Shown here in pieces: positions 9,001-18,000 of a DNA stretch of 64,000 nt. The stretch is taken from NCBI RefSeq assembly GCF_041248615.1, contig NZ_CP158425.1. One strand, given 5' to 3'. A program made the position numbers. The DNA is from Escherichia coli (GTDB lineage: Bacteria > Pseudomonadota > Gammaproteobacteria > Enterobacterales > Enterobacteriaceae). The stretch's first letter is position 1. Every line of letters begins with the position of its first letter.

Positions 9001-12000
9001 ACTAGTGTTGAGGAGAAAGTTATTCTTCAAAGATGACAATGGTAATATCACAGTGAATCCACTTTTAGAAGCTGAAACACGGTGGTATATGTCAAAATCA
9101 TTTGAATACACTTGTTTATCTCATGGACTTGATGCATGTGAATTTAGAGCGGAATTAAAATCATGGCTCTATTATCATTCGCATCGTTCGATTAGTGAAA
9201 ACACGAAATTAGCTGAATGCAGGAATGATGATGAAATCATTTTGCATGATTGCAATGACGATATGGGCTGGGACATCTTCTTTGATCAGGATTATTTAAT
9301 GTCAGAAAAAAAACTGGCTGTTAAATGGACTGACAGGGAAATTATGGATGTTTACATAAAAGCTTTTAAATCCACATTAGAGTTGTTTGACGAGCTTGTT
9401 TCATGTGATCTGTTAACTAAACGAAACGCTTTTGGCAAGTTAGAAATCAATCCAATATTCGAAAATCATTTTGAATGGATCATGTCTGAAGCTTTTGAAA
9501 TAGTGGGAAATCATCTTGGTTATAATGTGCCTCAAATCAGGAAACTGATGGCAACTATTTGCCAAATGAATCTCAAATAAAATGCCACTGGCAAACATCT
9601 GCCAGAGGGCGGTGTTTGCATTTTACCGGAGTTAAAAATGTCTAATGCCGCTATGAAGTTAAATGAAACATCTTCTGATGCTTATGAAAAATTAGAAGCT
9701 CTTCTTTCCCCGGATGTTATAAAGTTAAAACATTATGTGGATAAAGGTGAGTATCTTTTAGTTCTAGCAAAGGACCTTTTTGGTATTCCAGAAATGGATC
9801 CAAAGATGGCTGTGCCTGTTTTCAAAACTAAAACCTCGTATCGAGCTCCGCTGAACAAAGACTACATACCAAATCCCCGAATACTTGAACAAGTGGTTAA
9901 ACTGCTTATCAGTCCGGATATAGATTTAAGTGTGTGTCTTAAAGGTGAGTCCGGTTCTGGCAAGACTGAAATGGTAATGTACATTAGCCACATGATGAAT
10001 TGGCCGCTGACAATTAAGCAGATCAACAGCAATATTCGAGTTGATGAGCTTGAAGGTGAGCGCAGTCTTAATGGTGGTAATACAGGTTTTGTACACAGCG
10101 ATTTGGTAACGGGATTTCGTAATGGTCACCTCATTCTTCTGGATGAAGTGGACAAAATCGATCCTGATACGGCAGCAAAACTTCACATGCCCATTGAACG
10201 TAAGCCCTGGTCACTCAGTGCTAATGGTGGTGAGGTTATAACTGCTAATGGCTACACGCGATTTATTGGTACTGCAAACACAAACATGAGTGGAGGCGCT
10301 CGCCGGTTCGTTTCTTCTCAACGTCAAGATGCAGCTTTTATAAAGCGGTTCTTGATAGTTGAAATGGAGAAGCCCGACAAAGTTGCTTTAACCAATGTGC
10401 TTACTAAACGATATAGCTCTTTGCCTTTTCAGGTCATTGAGAAGTTCGTAAGAGTAGCGATTGCAGTAAATGACTCTGGTACAGAAGACAGTGTGATGGA
10501 TATTCGTCAATTAGTAGCTTGGGTTGGCACGTCGATGACGTTAAAAACCTTTAGTCTTCTTGACACTTTCAAAATAGCTTTTGCTTCTGCTTTACCTTTA
10601 CATGTGGTCGATCTTGTTCTTCAAGCTATAGATCTTTCTCTTGGCGAAGACAAGGATAAATCGCTGGAGTATTTCACAGCAAAAAAGTCGAGTTAGATGG
10701 GATTTGTTATGAAACCTCTGATATTTGTATCTCAGAGTTATCCCATCTTGAATTTAGTGCGTTTTTAAGTACGGATGGTGCTGCTACCATTGCTATAGCA
10801 AAAAACGGAACTAATTTTACTGGACTTATGCAACTGAATAACGACTATTCTTTATTGTTTTATCATGATGGTAAAATAAATATGGAAGGTCTGATTAAAC
10901 AAATGGAATTAAAAGGTTATATGTATCAGGGAGCAATGGGCAATGATGATGTTGTTGCTGAGTTTCCCGGTATTCTTTTAATTTCACCAGAGAAGCTTTA
11001 ATATCAACCCTATCGGGAAATCTTTCCCGTTGGGGAGGGTTTCCCCTTTTTTTTGGAGAAACCCATGACTTTAAATACTTCAATGCTTAACAAAGTATCT
11101 GCAAAACAAATCTCTGAGAATTTTGCAAAATCATATCCAGATTTACTGGAAGGTGCAGTTATAACAAAAATTGAAATAAGTGGCTGTCAAGGATCGCGTC
11201 GAACCGATAAAATCGATTTGTCTTATGATGGAGATGATATTACGGATCAAAAAAGCGTATCTAAAAGCGAAGTACGCTGGATTGACATAAAAGCCCTTAG
11301 CTTCAAAAGTACGATTACCAGCAGAATATCAACTCTTTGCTCACGCTTGTGCATCCGCTATAGCAATATGTGGATTTTACCAGTATCCAGTATGGAAGAG
11401 TTTCTGGAAGGGGCCCAAGAGATTGAACGAGAGTTTCAGGCAGGTATTCAAAACGTTGTAGACAATTATGAGATGCATATTGAGGCTGAAAAAAATAGAA
11501 GCCCAAGAATGTCTTCTTTGATTGATCAGTTGAAATTAACTAAAGATGATTTCATAAAATCCTTTAGATTTAATATTGCTCACTTTATTCCTTTTACGCC
11601 TATTAGCGTTGAAGGTGATGAAACCCAGGACTACTATCAGGAACAATTGATAACAGATCTGGCAGAAGAAGCAATGAAGGTTTATGAAAAAATTAGCAAA
11701 AATAACAATTTGCGCTCAAGTACTATTGACCGACTGAAGCAAATGCAAAATAAGATCATTAGCTTCATGTTTATACATAAAGAGGCGGCAGTACTTGCAG
11801 AAGCTATAAAACACATAATGAATAATTTACCTAAAGGTGCCATTTCTGAACCTCGCGACGTTGCGGTGTTACAGCAGTGGTTTTATTTCATGAGTGATGC
11901 TTCAATGTTAAAGCGTATTATTTCAGGAGAGCAAAAGGTTACTGACTGGTTGGAATCTATTACCAGATCATTTAATCAAAGCTCACAAACAGAACCGAAC

Positions 12001-15000: not shown

Positions 15001-18000
15001 AAAACGCAGACTTGCAAAAAGATTCTCTCAGATTTTTTCGGGATGGATCTGCATGCTCCGTTAACTGACGCCGACATTGAAAATGAACGACGCTATAAAT
15101 CAGCAGTTCGTGCCACAGAAACTCTTGACCGAGAGGAAGTGGCAAAGCGAATGCGAAAACTTGATGTGATGTATCACTATACCGGTGAAATCAAGCCTAA
15201 TACTCCTGTTGCTTTGTACCTCCGTAATCGTGGGATCTCCCGCTTACTGAGTCACTTACCAAAGGATTTAGGCTTTAATAACCGGATCTACTATTGGGAT
15301 AAAGATAAGCAGAAATCGATTATCTATCCGGGAATGATTGCGATCTATCGTGACACCCGAGGTCGGCCTCTGACTATTCATAGAACATACGTAGACAAAA
15401 ATGGTGATAAGGCACCTGTAGAAAATCCAAAGCTGATGATGAAGCCTCCTGCCGATATGACAGGTGGCTCAATTCAGTTGTTTGACCCTCACTATGATTC
15501 AGGTAGTTCGACCTGGACACTGGGAGTGGCTGAAGGGATCGAGAACGCGCTTTCTGTTGTAGAAGCGACTTCAACACCATGCTGGGCAGCCAGCTCCGCA
15601 TGGTGCCTTGAAAACGTTACTGTTCCTGATTTTTTACTGCCTCCGCCGGATGTAAAATCTATAAACTTTTATATCTGGGCGGATAAGGATATTGCTAACT
15701 CACAAGGCACTCGTGCCGGTATTGAAGCTGCTCAGCGACTTCAAAGCCGCATGGTTGAGTTTTTGGCTAAACGATATCCCGCATCAAAGCTGACAATTGA
15801 AGTCTTCGAACCAGCACAAGATATTCCTGATGGGAAAAAGGGTATCGACTGGAACGATGTTCTCCAGTTAACAGGGCAGGATGGATTCCCGATTCACTGG
15901 GCTCCTGAATGTCTTAATCAGCTGTAACAACGATAACTCCCCCGCTTTTTGCGGGGGGGGTTATCTTATCAATATTATATTTTAAAATTGTATTGATAAG
16001 ATAACCGCTTTCCTTCGTGATAATTACCTGCCTTTAAGGTCTTTTCACGGCTGAGATGCTTGCTCAGTTAAATAAATGTGCGGTACTACTGGCTATGGTC
16101 GGTTGTATGACATGGTTATTCCATAAACTATTAAAACCCATAACGGGAGTATTACCGTTATGGTGATGCTCGTCGTTTTACATCGGAGAGCATTTTAATG
16201 AATTTTCAAATTAACGAAGTTTTTAATAAATTTGCTGCTGTTATAAAATCGCGCATCGTCAATGAACCATCGTCATGCTATTTGCTGCATGATAATGAGA
16301 TAGATATAACGATTTTGAAACATAGCATATTAGAAAATGACAGAAACCTGTTGTACGTAGTTCGTCCTTCAGGAACGTGTTTGTTGCGTTGTGACAAATA
16401 TTTCTATCCGAAATATTATCTTCGTTGCCGTGGAGATTATAAGTCATTCATATATGTCCATCTTGATCTACATAGTGGTGAAGCTAAAGAAATCACATGG
16501 GAGCAAGCAGACGATATGCTGTCTAGTCCAGGAAAACCCCCATTAAAAGGGAATCTTGGACGATTTGAGTATATAAAAGTTGTGGTTGAGGACCTTCGTA
16601 TTCGAGGTTACGCTGATTATCTTCCTGCGTATAATCTTGATGACCTTCGCCGTTTTGCCTTACAGGACGACCGCCCATCCCTTGTCAGATACATTGGCAA
16701 TGTCATGGCAACGGTCTGATTGATTGCTAATTGATTTACATATTTTCCCTGATGGCCAACCTGCATCAGGGAGGCCTCAATAACGAATGGAGGCTGTATG
16801 AAGTTAGCTACGGACCTGGTAAAAGCTATTTTGATTAGAAATGGCGTTGAACCAGTAAATATAAGCGAATCATCTAAGTTATCTTTGAAACAACCACTGA
16901 CAGAACTTAAATTCAGTTTATATTTGCGAACTGAGCATTTATCTCACTTCCTACCCGGTTATGTTTATTCTATAAAAGAATGTCCACTGTCATATGACAT
17001 CGGGATCGAAATTCAGAAAATCTTCGAAAGTTTACATTTGTTAAACGAAGAATTTGAATCCCTCGGTTTTGTTTCTGTATGGATAGAAATGCATCAAAGC
17101 ATTTTTGAACAAAGTCGGTTTAAGAAAAGTAACTTTACTTTTCGGGAGGAAGAGGTCGAGCTTGCTAAAGGGCTTGTTTGTTCTCACAATTCACAAATAA
17201 GTAATGCGGCTTATTTCTGGCTTCAGCACTTTGAGGAGTTTATGATTTATGTTCGTAATAAGCTTATCGACCTCTTTCGAGAGGCCTATGACCTGATCCT
17301 TGGAATGCAGCAAGTATTTTTCATTCGGGAAAAGGAAGAGCTGTTGAAAACTATAAGTTATGGCGATGAGCTGTATGAGGTGAAATTCATGGCGGCTGAG
17401 CTTTACTCTATCGAACAGAACTTAAAGTGTTCTGAATCGATAAGTACAAAATCTCAAGCTTCGGCATATATTAACCGCATCCGTGAGTTTGTGCGTTCGG
17501 GGTGGAGGCAGGGCTATATAGTCTGCCATCATAAGCGAAGTAATCAAATTTCATCATTGTCATTACCGATGTACTTGAAAGATACGTCAGGCCGAAGTGC
17601 TCGAAAGCGAGTAAAACGTCTTATATCTTCTACAGTTTGTGGTAGAAATAAAGATTTAGGTCTTACAGATTTTTAATTAAATTATACCCATGTGGGGATC
17701 ACACCCCATATGGGAGTGATCCCTTTTTTTATTGAGAGAGGATCACATGAAAATTATCGAAAAAATCATTAATGCCTTTTTGGTTGTTCAACATAAAAAA
17801 ATACAGGTTAAAAACATTACATTTTTAGACAATGGGCAGGGCATGTTCTCTGGTATGTCTTTTGATGCTGATGTTTCACTGGAGTTTATGTATGAATCAG
17901 CAAAAGCATATAGTTCTTGTTTCTTTGATATTCCCTTTCCAGGTTTTGAAGATGCAAATCTGGAGGAAATTACGAAATTTCAATTAGATGCTTTGAAGCA

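What the first reader, a model, noticed from the sequence alone, without database searches (positions are those of the whole stretch)
9638..15927. AAA+ (MoxR/CobS-like) ATPase, unknown gene, vWA (CobT-like) protein, small ORF and Zn-ribbon/TOPRIM primase as one terminator-punctuated cluster
Walker A/B motifs in the 352-aa ATPase and a MIDAS-type vWA domain behind a long acidic linker in the 672-aa protein form the classic MoxR-vWA pairing. A 375-aa gene of no recognisable family sits between them and a primase-like gene follows. Such ATPase/vWA pairs with a third variable partner have been proposed as NTP-dependent conflict or defence modules, and CobS/CobT-like pairs also occur in phages. On a plasmid, next to a primase and a helicase, the role could equally be DNA establishment, anti-defence or defence. 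I cannot assign it to a named system.
Basis: partly seen in the sequence, partly recalled or inferred. Interest (0 to 1): 0.6.

Follow-up and report, generated by a model that had tools for sequence, protein, structure and literature searches.

The report
Plasmid entry module with frameshifting ATPase
This is a conserved backbone gene set of large resistance plasmids (CobS-like motor ATPase, DUF3150 protein, CobT-like adaptor, primase) that most likely helps newly transferred plasmid DNA survive and establish in a new host, and its ATPase gene appears to use a previously unannotated ribosomal frameshift.

Summary
The five ORFs, the Walker and MIDAS motifs and the inter-gene hairpins are real. 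The window is IncHI2 plasmid backbone, 100% identical in over 1,100 plasmids, directly downstream of trhN/trhI.

The "unknown" 375-aa gene is DUF3150 (PF11348). ATPase, DUF3150 and the CobT-like vWA protein co-occur in MOBH-type conjugative elements (IncHI1/2, IncC, Vibrio and Pseudomonas plasmids) and in unnamed contigs. In three of those contigs the same Toprim primase is linked too.

The IncC homologue of the ATPase (Vcrx089, with Vcrx090) is an experimentally shown anti-restriction factor that acts in the recipient. No defence-system model matches. The best reading is an ATP-driven remodelling machine for defence evasion and establishment, not a defence system or a chelatase.

New here:
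- The ATPase gene ends in an in-phase A_AAA_AAG heptamer, and the −1 frame is open for 104 further codons with no start codon. The same signal sits at the same place in seven other very divergent loci. The extension is WGR-like.
- The CobT-like protein carries an invariant HExxH…E motif that true CobT lacks.
- DUF3150 proteins end in an acidic tail with an aromatic last residue.

Function in IncHI2 remains untested.

The parts
5056..6840 (+). TrhI, a UvrD/Rep-family helicase. It is the first gene of the co-oriented block that is transcribed divergently from the - strand ORF 4004-4876, which sits just after trhN.
   Evidence: NCBIfam Rep/UvrD E 1e-51 to 7e-53. RefSeq name 'IncHI-type conjugal transfer helicase TrhI'. 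A 33-35% identical helicase occupies the same position in L003 and L008, and a UvrD-family helicase is called there in L018 and L021.
8165..8542 (+). 125-aa ORF at the position where related elements carry SSB. It may be a degenerate OB-fold protein.
   Evidence: Only weak similarity to the L008 SSB (E 0.002). No Pfam-independent family hit. The synteny helicase-SSB-ATPase is seen in L003, L008 and L018.
8603..9580 (+). 325-aa ORF of unknown family directly upstream of the ATPase.
   Evidence: Weak but repeated similarity to the ORFs directly upstream of the ATPase in L008 (E 1e-6) and L006 (E 1.5e-4). No family hit.
9638..10696 (+). CobS/MoxR-class AAA+ ATPase (AAA_5), 352 aa. This is the zero-frame product.
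   Evidence: Pfam AAA_5 9e-28. phrog_249 2.5e-30. PDB sequence neighbours are midasin, NorQ, CobS and CbbQ. Catalytic motifs are conserved. It is 27% identical to the IncC ATPase at the position of vcrx089, E 8e-26.
10681..10687 (+). A_AAA_AAG slippery heptamer in X_XXY_YYZ phase, three codons before the ATPase stop. Candidate -1 programmed ribosomal frameshift site.
   Evidence: Sequence read directly. It is the only in-phase copy in the gene and the only one within 30 nt of an ORF end in the whole window. The same heptamer lies in the same phase 10-13 nt from the end of the ATPase gene in IncHI1A, L004, L006, L008, L018, L020 and L021. L003 has G_GGA_AAG.
10690..10755 (+). RNA stem-loop that starts 3 nt (outer stem) to 8 nt (9-bp core stem) after the heptamer. 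Possible frameshift stimulator.
   Evidence: MFE -18.1 kcal/mol, z -2.1. Comparable hairpins occur in IncHI1A (z -2.2) and L008 (-36 kcal/mol, z -4.7). L004 is weaker, and L006 and L003 have none.
10687..11001 (+). -1 frame extension of 104 codons. Read through the frameshift it gives a predicted 454-aa ATPase with a WGR-like C-terminal domain. RefSeq annotates only the last 58 codons (10828-11001).
   Evidence: The frame is open from 10660 with no ATG/GTG/TTG before 10828. The 49 codons upstream of the annotated ATG stay open and are 39% identical in IncHI1A, with differences concentrated at third codon positions; the other two frames hold 8-12 stops. A profile of 9 extensions hits the N-terminal domain of PDB 2ra8 at E 3.5e-6. 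The L018 ORF carries a weak precomputed Pfam WGR hit.
11015..11045 (+). Terminator-like hairpin with a T8 run.
11065..12192 (+). DUF3150 protein, 375 aa. It has a helical bundle with a small beta-sheet, then a disordered acidic tail ending ...ELKGW.
12270..14288 (+). CobT-like adaptor, 672 aa. N-domain (9-272) with an invariant H70-E71-x-x-H74 ... D133 ... E137 motif, acidic disordered linker (272-372), and a C-terminal vWA domain with a complete MIDAS.
14302..14322 (+). Terminator-like hairpin.
14360..14581 (+). 73-aa ORF of unknown family.
   Evidence: No family hit.
14587..14604 (+). Terminator-like hairpin.
14695..15927 (+). Toprim primase (DUF7146 + Toprim_3) with a degenerate N-terminal Zn-ribbon-like segment.
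   Evidence: Pfam. phrog_510 'DNA primase' 1.7e-27. It is 32% identical (E 2e-35) to the primase that follows the CobT-like gene in L009. The same linkage is seen in L018 and L021.
15937..15959 (+). Strong G+C-rich terminator-like hairpin that closes the cluster.

Best explanation
This is a conserved, transfer-linked 'entry/establishment' module of MOBH-type conjugative elements, not cargo.

Shown here:
- A CobS/MoxR-class AAA+ ATPase, a DUF3150 protein and a CobT-like MIDAS/vWA protein co-occur in very divergent elements.
- In three of the distant contigs sampled, a Toprim primase is linked to them as well.
- The block sits in the backbone downstream of traN/trhN, next to a UvrD-type helicase and SSB.

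Shown by others for the IncC homologue:
- The ATPase (Vcrx089, together with Vcrx090) protects incoming plasmid DNA from type I, and to a lesser degree type II, restriction.
- It does so from within the recipient cell.

Inferred mechanism:
1. As in every studied MoxR/CobS-vWA pair (CobST, NorQD, CbbQO, midasin), the ATPase ring supplies mechanical work and the MIDAS site of the vWA partner grips an acidic group on a target.
2. DUF3150, always encoded immediately upstream of the vWA gene and ending in an acidic tail with an aromatic C-terminus, is the dedicated third subunit (adaptor or client).
3. A programmed -1 frameshift at A_AAA_AAG makes a minority of ATPase subunits carry a WGR-like, probably nucleic-acid-binding, tail. 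This would place the machine on DNA.
4. The complex then remodels, or cleaves through the HExxH domain, a DNA-bound host factor such as a type I restriction complex, while the primase, SSB-like protein and helicase convert the entering single strand to duplex.
For: Identity and setting:
- The cluster is 100% identical in over 1,100 IncHI2-type conjugative plasmids and lies after trhF-trhW-trhU-trhN-trhI.

Co-occurrence:
- DUF3150 is followed by the CobT-like gene in L002, L005, L006/7, L008, L009, L013, L015/L017, L016 and L018.
- An AAA_5 gene lies within 5 kb in every locus that has enough flank.
- The primase is linked in L009, L018 and L021.

Homology to the tested system:
- Window ATPase to IncC ATPase: E 8e-26. 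Window vWA protein to IncC vWA protein over the full length: E 9e-22.
- IncC carries the same genes in one operon downstream of traN (PMC7498323).

Published function:
- Delta(vcrx089-090) lowers transfer 25-fold into a restricting V. cholerae but not into its hsdR mutant, and it is complemented from the recipient.
- It increases EcoBI/EcoKI restriction 424- to 906-fold (PMC11602122).
- In SXT, deleting s067, s068 and neighbours costs 10-fold or less in transfer between non-restricting hosts (PMC2791158). This fits a non-essential, host-dependent role.

Machine features:
- Catalytic and MIDAS residues are intact.
- The vWA fold is closest to the midasin and NorD MIDAS domains.

Frameshift:
-.

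WGR-like tail:
-.

HExxH:
-. An N-terminal metallopeptidase fused to the vWA partner of a MoxR ATPase has been described in jumbo phages (PMC7824862).
Against: - No experiment exists for the IncHI2 genes. None was found in the searched literature; DUF3150 occurs in one paper only.
- The ATPase is only 27% identical to Vcrx089.
- No homologue of Vcrx090 is detectable in the window (hhalign probability 0.4%).
- bet and exo are absent from this block.
- The published hde phenotype was assigned to vcrx089-093. DUF3150 and the vWA gene were not implicated, though they were not specifically tested for restriction evasion either.
- The zincin reading rests on a motif and predicted topology. Pfam and PDB sequence searches of the N-domain found no peptidase.
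- The WGR assignment is weak: the direct Pfam scan was negative.
- No natural single-ORF ATPase-extension fusion was found.
- A downstream RNA structure is convincing in only 3 of 9 frameshift loci.
- L021 lacks the vWA gene at its usual place.
Confidence: 0.5

Rival explanations
1. Replication or priming accessory. The AAA+/vWA/DUF3150 complex serves the adjacent primase, for example by loading or remodelling it, SSB or the helicase on the transferred strand or at the vegetative origin. On this reading it has no direct action on host defences.
For: The primase is linked to the triad in IncHI2, L009, L018 and L021. A helicase and SSB lie in the same block. The ATPase gives weak hits to clamp-loader models. 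A WGR-like DNA-binding tail would suit a DNA-replication role.
Against: IncC and SXT carry the triad without this primase next to it. The only genetic data on a homologous ATPase show a restriction-dependent phenotype and no defect between isogenic hosts. MoxR/CobS-class ATPases are not known as loaders.
Confidence: 0.22
2. Assembly chaperone for the conjugation apparatus. By analogy with MoxR-vWA pairs proposed for phage tail or virion assembly, the complex would mature a Trh/Tra component, with the HExxH domain processing it.
For: The block lies immediately after the mating-pair genes trhW, trhU and trhN. In SXT it is co-regulated with tra genes by SetCD. There is a phage precedent (PMC7824862).
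Against: SXT deletions of s067/s068 reduce transfer 10-fold or less. The IncC Delta(vcrx089-090) plasmid transfers normally between isogenic E. coli and is complemented only from the recipient. L009 is a Rep3/ParAB plasmid contig with no tra genes in the 15 kb seen.
Confidence: 0.08
3. NTP-dependent defence or conflict module (MoxR-vWA with a variable third partner) that protects the host or plasmid against phages or rival plasmids.
For: MoxR-vWA ternary systems have been proposed as conflict systems (PMC7159879, listed). Plasmids often carry defence genes.
Against: No PADLOC model matches beyond P-loop-level hits with E of 2e-4 or worse. The genes are fixed backbone, syntenic across families that otherwise share little, rather than variable hotspot cargo. 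No effector domain (nuclease, TIR, pore former) is present.
Confidence: 0.05
4. Genuine cobaltochelatase subunits (CobS/CobT) that support cobalamin synthesis.
For: There is distant similarity to CobS and CobT. Older annotations in related elements use those names.
Against: Scores are far below the equivalog cut-offs (34 vs 558 bits and 34 vs 779 bits). No CobN is annotated within 20 kb. The N-domain differs from true CobT at the HExxH site. The hosts are enterobacteria that use the anaerobic pathway (established knowledge).
Confidence: 0.02

Closest known systems
IncC/SXT hde operon: Vcrx089 (AAA_5/CbbQ_C ATPase) + Vcrx090, followed by ssb-bet-exo, then DUF3150 and vWA genes (Roy et al. 2020, PMC7498323; Dimitriu et al. 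2024, PMC11602122)
   Same: The ATPase (E 8e-26), the CobT-like vWA protein (E 9e-22) and a DUF3150 gene are homologous. They have the same orientation and the same position downstream of traN/trhN on a MOBH/MPF_F element. All lie in one co-oriented block.
   Different: In IncHI2 there is no detectable Vcrx090 and no bet/exo. The ATPase sits next to DUF3150-vWA rather than 4 kb upstream of it. A Toprim primase and a UvrD helicase flank the set. The ATPase gene carries a -1 frameshift signal and a WGR-like extension that IncC lacks. Function in IncHI2 is untested.
Aerobic cobaltochelatase CobS-CobT(-CobN) and Mg-chelatase BchI/ChlI-BchD/ChlD(-BchH)
   Same: AAA+ motor plus a partner built as N-domain, acidic linker and vWA/MIDAS. 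A third subunit is required. There is precedent for -1 frameshifting in chlD genes (PMC3711429, PMC9227772).
   Different: There is no CobN or BchH; DUF3150 takes the place of a third subunit. Scores are far below family cut-offs. The N-domain has an HExxH...E motif that true CobT lacks. The frameshift adds a small WGR-like domain rather than joining the I-like and D-like halves.
MoxR-class remodellers with MIDAS adaptors: NorQ/NorD, CbbQ/CbbO, RavA/ViaA, Rea1/midasin
   Different: The client is unknown. The genes are plasmid-borne and linked to DNA-metabolism genes. The adaptor has a possible zincin-like N-domain.
MoxR AAA+ / metallopeptidase-vWA pair of group 2.2 jumbo phages (Iyer et al. 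2021, PMC7824862) and phage 'CobS/CobT' genes (phrog_249, phrog_1576/17276)
   Same: The ATPase matches phrog_249 (2.5e-30) and the vWA protein matches phrog_1576 (5e-16). An N-terminal HExxH-type domain is fused to vWA.
   Different: The phage pairs were proposed to act in virion assembly. No DUF3150 was found by tblastn in the phage genome collection, although DUF3150-fold proteins exist among uncultured phages.
dnaX-type -1 programmed ribosomal frameshifting
   Same: Identical slippery heptamer A_AAA_AAG in phase. Some loci have a downstream hairpin. Two products come from one gene for an AAA+ protein.
   Different: Here the frameshift product is the longer one, and the site lies in the last 3-5 codons, usually directly before the stop. 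No product has been observed.

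Membership tests
MoxR/CobS-class AAA+ ATPase (Pfam AAA_5) | Profile match to AAA_5 | tested here: met
   PF07728 E 9.2e-28, residues 99-238.
MoxR/CobS-class AAA+ ATPase (Pfam AAA_5) | Walker A, Walker B Glu, sensor 1, Arg finger, sensor 2 | tested here: met
   G103, G106, G108, K109, E170, T212, N214, R237 and R290 are invariant in 7 divergent homologues.
Aerobic cobaltochelatase CobNST | CobS and CobT reach the curated equivalog scores | tested here: not met
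   TIGR01650: 34.4 bits against a cut-off of 558.55. TIGR02442: 33.8 bits against 779.45.
Aerobic cobaltochelatase CobNST | A CobN substrate-binding subunit is encoded with them | tested here: not met
   None is annotated within 20 kb on either side in the identical plasmid record, nor in 10 related loci.
vWA/MIDAS adaptor of a MoxR-class ATPase | Complete MIDAS (DxSxS ... T ... D) in a vWA fold | tested here: met
IncC/SXT hde anti-restriction module (Vcrx089-Vcrx090) | Homologue of the Vcrx089 ATPase at the syntenic position downstream of traN | tested here: met
   27% identity, E 8e-26, to the IncC ATPase (L005:11968-12936). Both lie after traU-traN on MOBH/MPF_F plasmids.
IncC/SXT hde anti-restriction module (Vcrx089-Vcrx090) | Homologue of Vcrx090 | tested here: not met
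   No BLASTP hit. hhalign of the extension family against the Vcrx090 family gives probability 0.4%.
IncC/SXT hde anti-restriction module (Vcrx089-Vcrx090) | ssb-bet-exo recombination genes in the same operon | tested here: not met
   No Bet or Exo homologue in window 1-34000. There is only a weak SSB-like ORF.
IncC/SXT hde anti-restriction module (Vcrx089-Vcrx090) | Protects incoming DNA from type I restriction, acting in the recipient | not testable with these tools
   Needs mating assays. Shown only for the IncC plasmids pVCR94 and pKAZ3.
DUF3150 (PF11348) | Profile match over most of the model | tested here: met
   E 3.7e-23, model positions 1-241 of 257.
Known anti-phage defence systems (PADLOC-DB 2.0) | Significant match of any of the five products to a defence-system model | tested here: not met
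   The best hits are P-loop-level only (DolB/IetA E 2e-4; RTasDnaG-like E 4e-3).
Toprim primase of plasmid/phage type (Zn_Ribbon_Prim + DUF7146 + Toprim_3) | Toprim_3 and DUF7146 domains | tested here: met
   E 6.6e-12 and 3.9e-19. phrog_510 'DNA primase' 1.7e-27.
Toprim primase of plasmid/phage type (Zn_Ribbon_Prim + DUF7146 + Toprim_3) | N-terminal four-ligand zinc ribbon | tested here: inconclusive
   Pfam does not detect it in the window protein. The aligned L009 homologue has it. The window reads C-P-F-T ... C-A-I-H where L009 reads C-P-M-H ... C-N-Q-C.
Programmed -1 ribosomal frameshift (dnaX type) | X_XXY_YYZ heptamer in the zero-frame phase, conserved across homologues | tested here: met
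   A_AAA_AAG occurs at the 3' end of 8 ATPase genes that are 25-30% identical apart from the IncHI2/IncHI1A pair (76%), and G_GGA_AAG in a ninth. The background is 4 in-phase copies in 69 kb of ORFs.
Programmed -1 ribosomal frameshift (dnaX type) | -1 frame open and under coding constraint from the shift site, without its own start | tested here: met
   104-197 codons are open in all 9 loci. In the window the first start codon is 47 codons downstream. The IncHI2/IncHI1A comparison shows a coding pattern. In L020, L018, L003 and L007 an alternative start near the site cannot be excluded.
Programmed -1 ribosomal frameshift (dnaX type) | Downstream stimulatory RNA structure | tested here: inconclusive
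   Significant in the window (z -2.1), IncHI1A (z -2.2) and L008 (z -4.7). Weak or absent in L004, L006 and L003. In 6 of the 9 loci a zero-frame stop codon follows the heptamer directly.
Programmed -1 ribosomal frameshift (dnaX type) | Trans-frame protein product observed | not testable with these tools
   Needs western blot, mass spectrometry or ribosome profiling.
WGR domain (PF05406) | Profile-level similarity to WGR domains | tested here: inconclusive
   A profile of 9 extensions matches residues 7-78 of 2ra8_A at E 3.5e-6. I recognise that segment as WGR-type from its motif, not from an annotation. There is a weak precomputed WGR hit on the L018 ORF. The direct Pfam scan of 9 sequences was negative.
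Zincin-type metallopeptidase | HExxH on a helix plus a downstream acidic third ligand | tested here: met
   H70, E71, H74, D133 and E137 are invariant in 9 plasmid lineages. HExxH lies in predicted helix 58-77 and D133/E137 in helix 111-143.
Zincin-type metallopeptidase | Sequence or fold match to a known peptidase family | tested here: inconclusive

The most novel reading that the evidence does not exclude
The four genes encode a new kind of anti-restriction machine. The parts would be a CobS-like AAA+ ring whose subunit composition is set by a conserved -1 ribosomal frameshift, so that a fraction of subunits carry a WGR-like DNA-binding tail; a CobT-like adaptor that combines a MIDAS grip with a zincin-type HExxH site; and DUF3150 as a tail-docked third subunit. 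Together they would find restriction complexes on the entering plasmid DNA and strip or cleave them.

Taken on its own, the frameshift would be a previously unannotated recoding family present in more than a thousand sequenced resistance plasmids. I put that part at about 0.75.
Probability: 0.2. Interest if true: 0.85.

Novelty: new variant of a known kind. Interest (0 to 1): 0.62.

Why it matters
IncHI2, IncHI1 and IncC plasmids are major carriers of mcr-1, carbapenemase and multidrug-resistance genes. Their ability to enter restricting hosts sets their host range.

The anti-restriction activity of the IncC ATPase is established, but its mechanism is unknown. This analysis points to its likely partners (DUF3150 and the CobT-like MIDAS/HExxH protein) and to a DNA-targeting isoform made by frameshifting. 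Those give concrete mutants to test.

The frameshift also means that current annotation of over a thousand plasmid records truncates or misses a protein. It adds a conserved bacterial -1 recoding case in an AAA+ gene beyond dnaX and chlD.

Tried and rejected
- PADLOC scan of nine products: only P-loop-level hits, so the defence reading was dropped.
- Cobalamin role: scores are far below cut-offs and there is no CobN.
- The search for related loci with the 50-sequence DUF3150 alignment failed because no stretch was conserved enough. I used exact-protein look-ups instead.
- Is the -1 extension a Vcrx090 homologue? BLASTP, two hhalign runs and PDB searches were all negative. I treat it as a positional analogue only.
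- Direct Pfam, PHROG and NCBIfam scans of the extension peptides: nothing.
- Search for natural single-ORF ATPase+extension fusions: none found with the word-based search.
- Paralogy among the ~300-aa ORFs downstream (16798-20676): none detectable.
- The local hit between window ORF 29759-30850(-) and the IncC vWA N-domain looks spurious. That ORF has a kinase-like motif and no HExxH.
- IncHI-specific literature (R27 transcriptome, IncHI2 evolution study) held no data on these genes.
- No supplementary TnSeq table for vcrx094/095 was available.

Full report
**1. What is there**

The 6.3-kb segment is 100% identical in more than 1,100 records of the plasmid collection. These are almost all large conjugative plasmids of Escherichia, Salmonella, Enterobacter and Klebsiella. 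In the identical record pSE08-00436-1 (IncHI2A, MOBH relaxase, MPF_F) the segment lies directly after the transfer genes trhF, trhW(TrbC), trhU, trhN, a - strand ORF and the helicase trhI. The cluster is therefore IncHI2 backbone next to transfer region 2, not cargo.

**2. The products**

- *ATPase (9638-10696).* It is an AAA_5 protein (E 9e-28). Its nearest solved relatives by sequence are midasin, NorQ, CobS and CbbQ. Walker A, the Walker B glutamate, sensor 1, the arginine finger and sensor 2 are invariant in an alignment of seven homologues that share only 25-28% identity.
- *Last gene.* It is a DUF7146 + Toprim_3 primase (phrog_510). Pfam does not detect a zinc ribbon, and the ligand pattern is partly degenerate compared with a homologue that has one.
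- *Hairpins.* Terminator-like hairpins are over-represented: 22 against 9.1 +/- 3.1 expected. On the + strand they follow four of the genes.

**3. It is a conserved module**

I took distant DUF3150 representatives from an exhaustive profile-free search (118 proteins at E <= 1e-3) and looked up the contigs that encode them.

- In every locus with enough flanking DNA, an AAA_5 gene lies within 5 kb. Wherever the downstream sequence was long enough to judge, with L021 as the one exception, the gene immediately after DUF3150 is the CobT-like protein. This holds for L002, L004, L006-L010, L018 and L020. L004 and L020 show only the ATPase half of this. In L003 the partial downstream gene was not detected by tblastn, but it aligns with the family.
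- The same holds in annotated plasmids: IncC pSN254, IncHI1A, IncHI1B, a Vibrio MOBH plasmid and a Pseudomonadaceae MOBH plasmid.
- L018 repeats the whole IncHI2 order: helicase, SSB, ATPase, small overlapping ORF, DUF3150, vWA, primase.
- L009 is a Rep3/ParAB plasmid contig whose DUF3150 is about 23% identical. It has ATPase ... DUF3150, CobT/vWA, then a primase 32% identical to the window's.
- The primase association recurs in L021 as well, where the vWA gene is missing from its usual place.

**4. Link to a tested system**

In IncC the homologous ATPase (27% identity, E 8e-26) and the vWA protein (E 9e-22 over the full length) lie downstream of traN. They are separated by a gene of unknown family, ssb, bet and exo, with a DUF3150 gene just before the vWA gene. 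This is the hde (host defence evasion) operon of pVCR94.

- vcrx089 (AAA_5 + CbbQ_C) and vcrx090 confer evasion of a type I restriction system and act in the recipient. ssb-bet-exo repairs CRISPR-Cas breaks. A cDNA primed in vcrx094 contains vcrx087, vcrx089 and bet (PMC7498323).
- In pKAZ3, deleting vcrx089-090 raises restriction by EcoBI and EcoKI 424- and 906-fold, and by two type II systems about 10-fold (PMC11602122).
- In SXT, deleting bet, exo, s067, s068 or s070 lowers transfer 10-fold or less between laboratory strains (PMC2791158). The operon is driven by the transfer activator SetCD (PMC4344509).
- None of these papers assigns a role to the DUF3150 or vWA genes. DUF3150 occurs in only one paper of the library.
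- No defence-system model matches any product.

**5. A candidate programmed frameshift**

Between the ATPase and DUF3150, RefSeq annotates a 58-aa ORF (10828-11001). Its reading frame is in fact open from 10660, overlapping the ATPase end, with no ATG, GTG or TTG before 10828.

- The ATPase ends ...GCA AAA AAG TCG AGT TAG. The heptamer A_AAA_AAG (10681-10687) is in the X_XXY_YYZ phase, and a -1 slip there reads straight into the open frame.
- I then examined every homologous locus in hand. The same heptamer, in the same phase, lies 10-13 nt from the end of the ATPase gene in IncHI1A, L004, L006, L008, L018, L020 and L021. L003 has G_GGA_AAG. In all nine, the -1 frame is open for 104-197 further codons.
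- Apart from the IncHI2/IncHI1A pair (76% identical), these ATPases are 25-30% identical to one another. Each gene holds exactly one in-phase heptamer. The window's 69 kb of ORFs contain only four in-phase copies, and only this one lies near an ORF end.
- Between IncHI2 and IncHI1A, the 49 codons upstream of the annotated ATG remain open and 39% identical. Differences by codon position are 19/12/28, while the other two frames hold 8-12 stops.
- A hairpin starts a few bases after the heptamer in the window (z -2.1), IncHI1A (z -2.2) and L008 (-36 kcal/mol, z -4.7). It is not seen in L006 or L003.
- IncC, the Vibrio plasmid and L009 lack the signal and instead have a separate vcrx090-type gene at that place. 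IncHI1B and pT75-VIM have neither.
- Frameshifting of this kind is documented in chlD chelatase genes (PMC3711429, PMC9227772).
- In the papers and annotations I searched, I found no mention of it for these plasmid ATPases.
- In some loci an internal start near the site could also serve, and no single-ORF fusion was found. I put the frameshift at about 0.75.

**6. The extension**

The nine extension peptides share a C-terminal block (W-A-I-S ... T-D ... K-x-x-K-G-Y). A profile of it matches residues 7-78 of PDB 2ra8 at E 3.5e-6. I recognise that segment as WGR-type from its motif. The L018 ORF carries a weak precomputed Pfam WGR hit. A direct Pfam scan was negative, and homology to Vcrx090 is not supported. 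WGR domains are described as DNA-binding (PMC7824862).

**7. Two further features**

- The N-domain of the CobT-like protein has H70-E71-x-x-H74, D133 and E137 invariant in nine plasmid lineages. True CobT lacks the HExxH. The motif sits on a predicted helix, with the acidic pair on the next long helix. This is the zincin arrangement. A metallopeptidase-vWA fusion partnered with a MoxR ATPase has been described for jumbo phages. Sequence searches did not confirm a peptidase family.
- 48 of 50 DUF3150 proteins end in F, W or Y after a low-complexity acidic tail, often as (F/W)-G-x-(F/W). The Vcrx090-type proteins end in a similar acidic ...FF. This looks like a docking tip for a partner such as the MIDAS site or the ATPase ring. 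That reading is inference.

**8. Interpretation**

The supported reading is an ATP-driven remodelling complex (ATPase ring, MIDAS adaptor, DUF3150 subunit). It belongs to the transfer-linked backbone and serves the entering plasmid, most probably by neutralising restriction as its IncC homologue does. The primase, helicase and SSB-like genes of the same block would complete the complementary strand.

The steps from 'homologous ATPase' to 'same function', and from 'co-occurrence' to 'one complex', are inferred. The main rival is a role in priming or replication that needs no action on host defences. A transfer-apparatus chaperone, a defence system and a chelatase are progressively less likely, for the reasons given under the rivals.

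**9. Novelty and score**

The gene set is a variant of a known kind: MoxR/CobS-vWA remodellers, and the IncC hde ATPase. The following appear undescribed in the literature I could search, and they turn an open question (how Vcrx089 defeats restriction) into specific experiments:
- the conserved four-gene association;
- the frameshift with its WGR-like tail;
- the HExxH site;
- the DUF3150 tail.

Nothing has been tested in IncHI2. Interest 0.62.

Noticed in passing
window 10681-11001: An in-phase A_AAA_AAG lies at the end of the ATPase gene, followed by 104 open -1 codons with no start codon. RefSeq annotates only a 58-aa ORF. The same signal occurs in 7 other divergent loci, and G_GGA_AAG in a ninth.
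   Followed up: yes
window 12090-12192 (C-terminus of the DUF3150 protein); alignment A1: 48 of 50 DUF3150 proteins end in F, W or Y after a disordered acidic tail, commonly as (F/W)-G-x-(F/W). Vcrx090-type proteins end in a similar acidic ...FF. This may be a docking tip.
   Followed up: partly
window 8603-9580: The 325-aa ORF just upstream of the ATPase has weak, repeated similarity to the ORFs just upstream of the ATPase in L008 (E 1e-6) and L006 (E 1.5e-4). It may be a further conserved member of the block.
   Followed up: partly
window 8165-8542: A 125-aa ORF sits where related elements carry SSB. It shows only faint similarity to an SSB OB-fold (E 0.002).
   Followed up: partly
window 5916-5922 (inside trhI): A second in-phase A_AAA_AAG heptamer lies in the middle of the helicase gene. 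I did not check whether the -1 frame is open there.
   Followed up: no
L018:11507-11737, L021:8646-8900, L005:22777-23001: A small 2Fe-2S ferredoxin gene (Fer2, or YfaE-like in IncC) recurs a little downstream of the primase or vWA gene in three unrelated elements.
   Followed up: no
L016:23814-24001 and L017:6025-6831: A DNA adenine modification methylase lies a few genes downstream of the vWA gene in both the Vibrio and the Pseudomonadaceae plasmids. This fits a block devoted to restriction evasion.
   Followed up: no
L021:6001-8649: In this contig DUF3150 is followed directly by the primase, with no CobT-like vWA gene between them. It is the only exception to the DUF3150-vWA adjacency seen.
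   Followed up: no
window 12213-12238: A perfect 9-bp-stem palindrome lies between DUF3150 and the vWA gene. Its T-run is on the - strand only, although no - strand gene ends there.
   Followed up: no
window 4004-4876 (- strand) and 4877-5055: A 290-aa - strand ORF lies immediately after trhN and is divergent from trhI. This mirrors the divergent s063/s089 promoter region of SXT that SetCD activates. No sequence similarity to the IncC - strand ORFs was detected.
   Followed up: partly
window 1-24000 versus 36000-64000: G+C is about 35-45% over the transfer/entry block and about 48-55% in the right half of the window. This suggests backbone on the left and differently sourced DNA on the right.
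   Followed up: no
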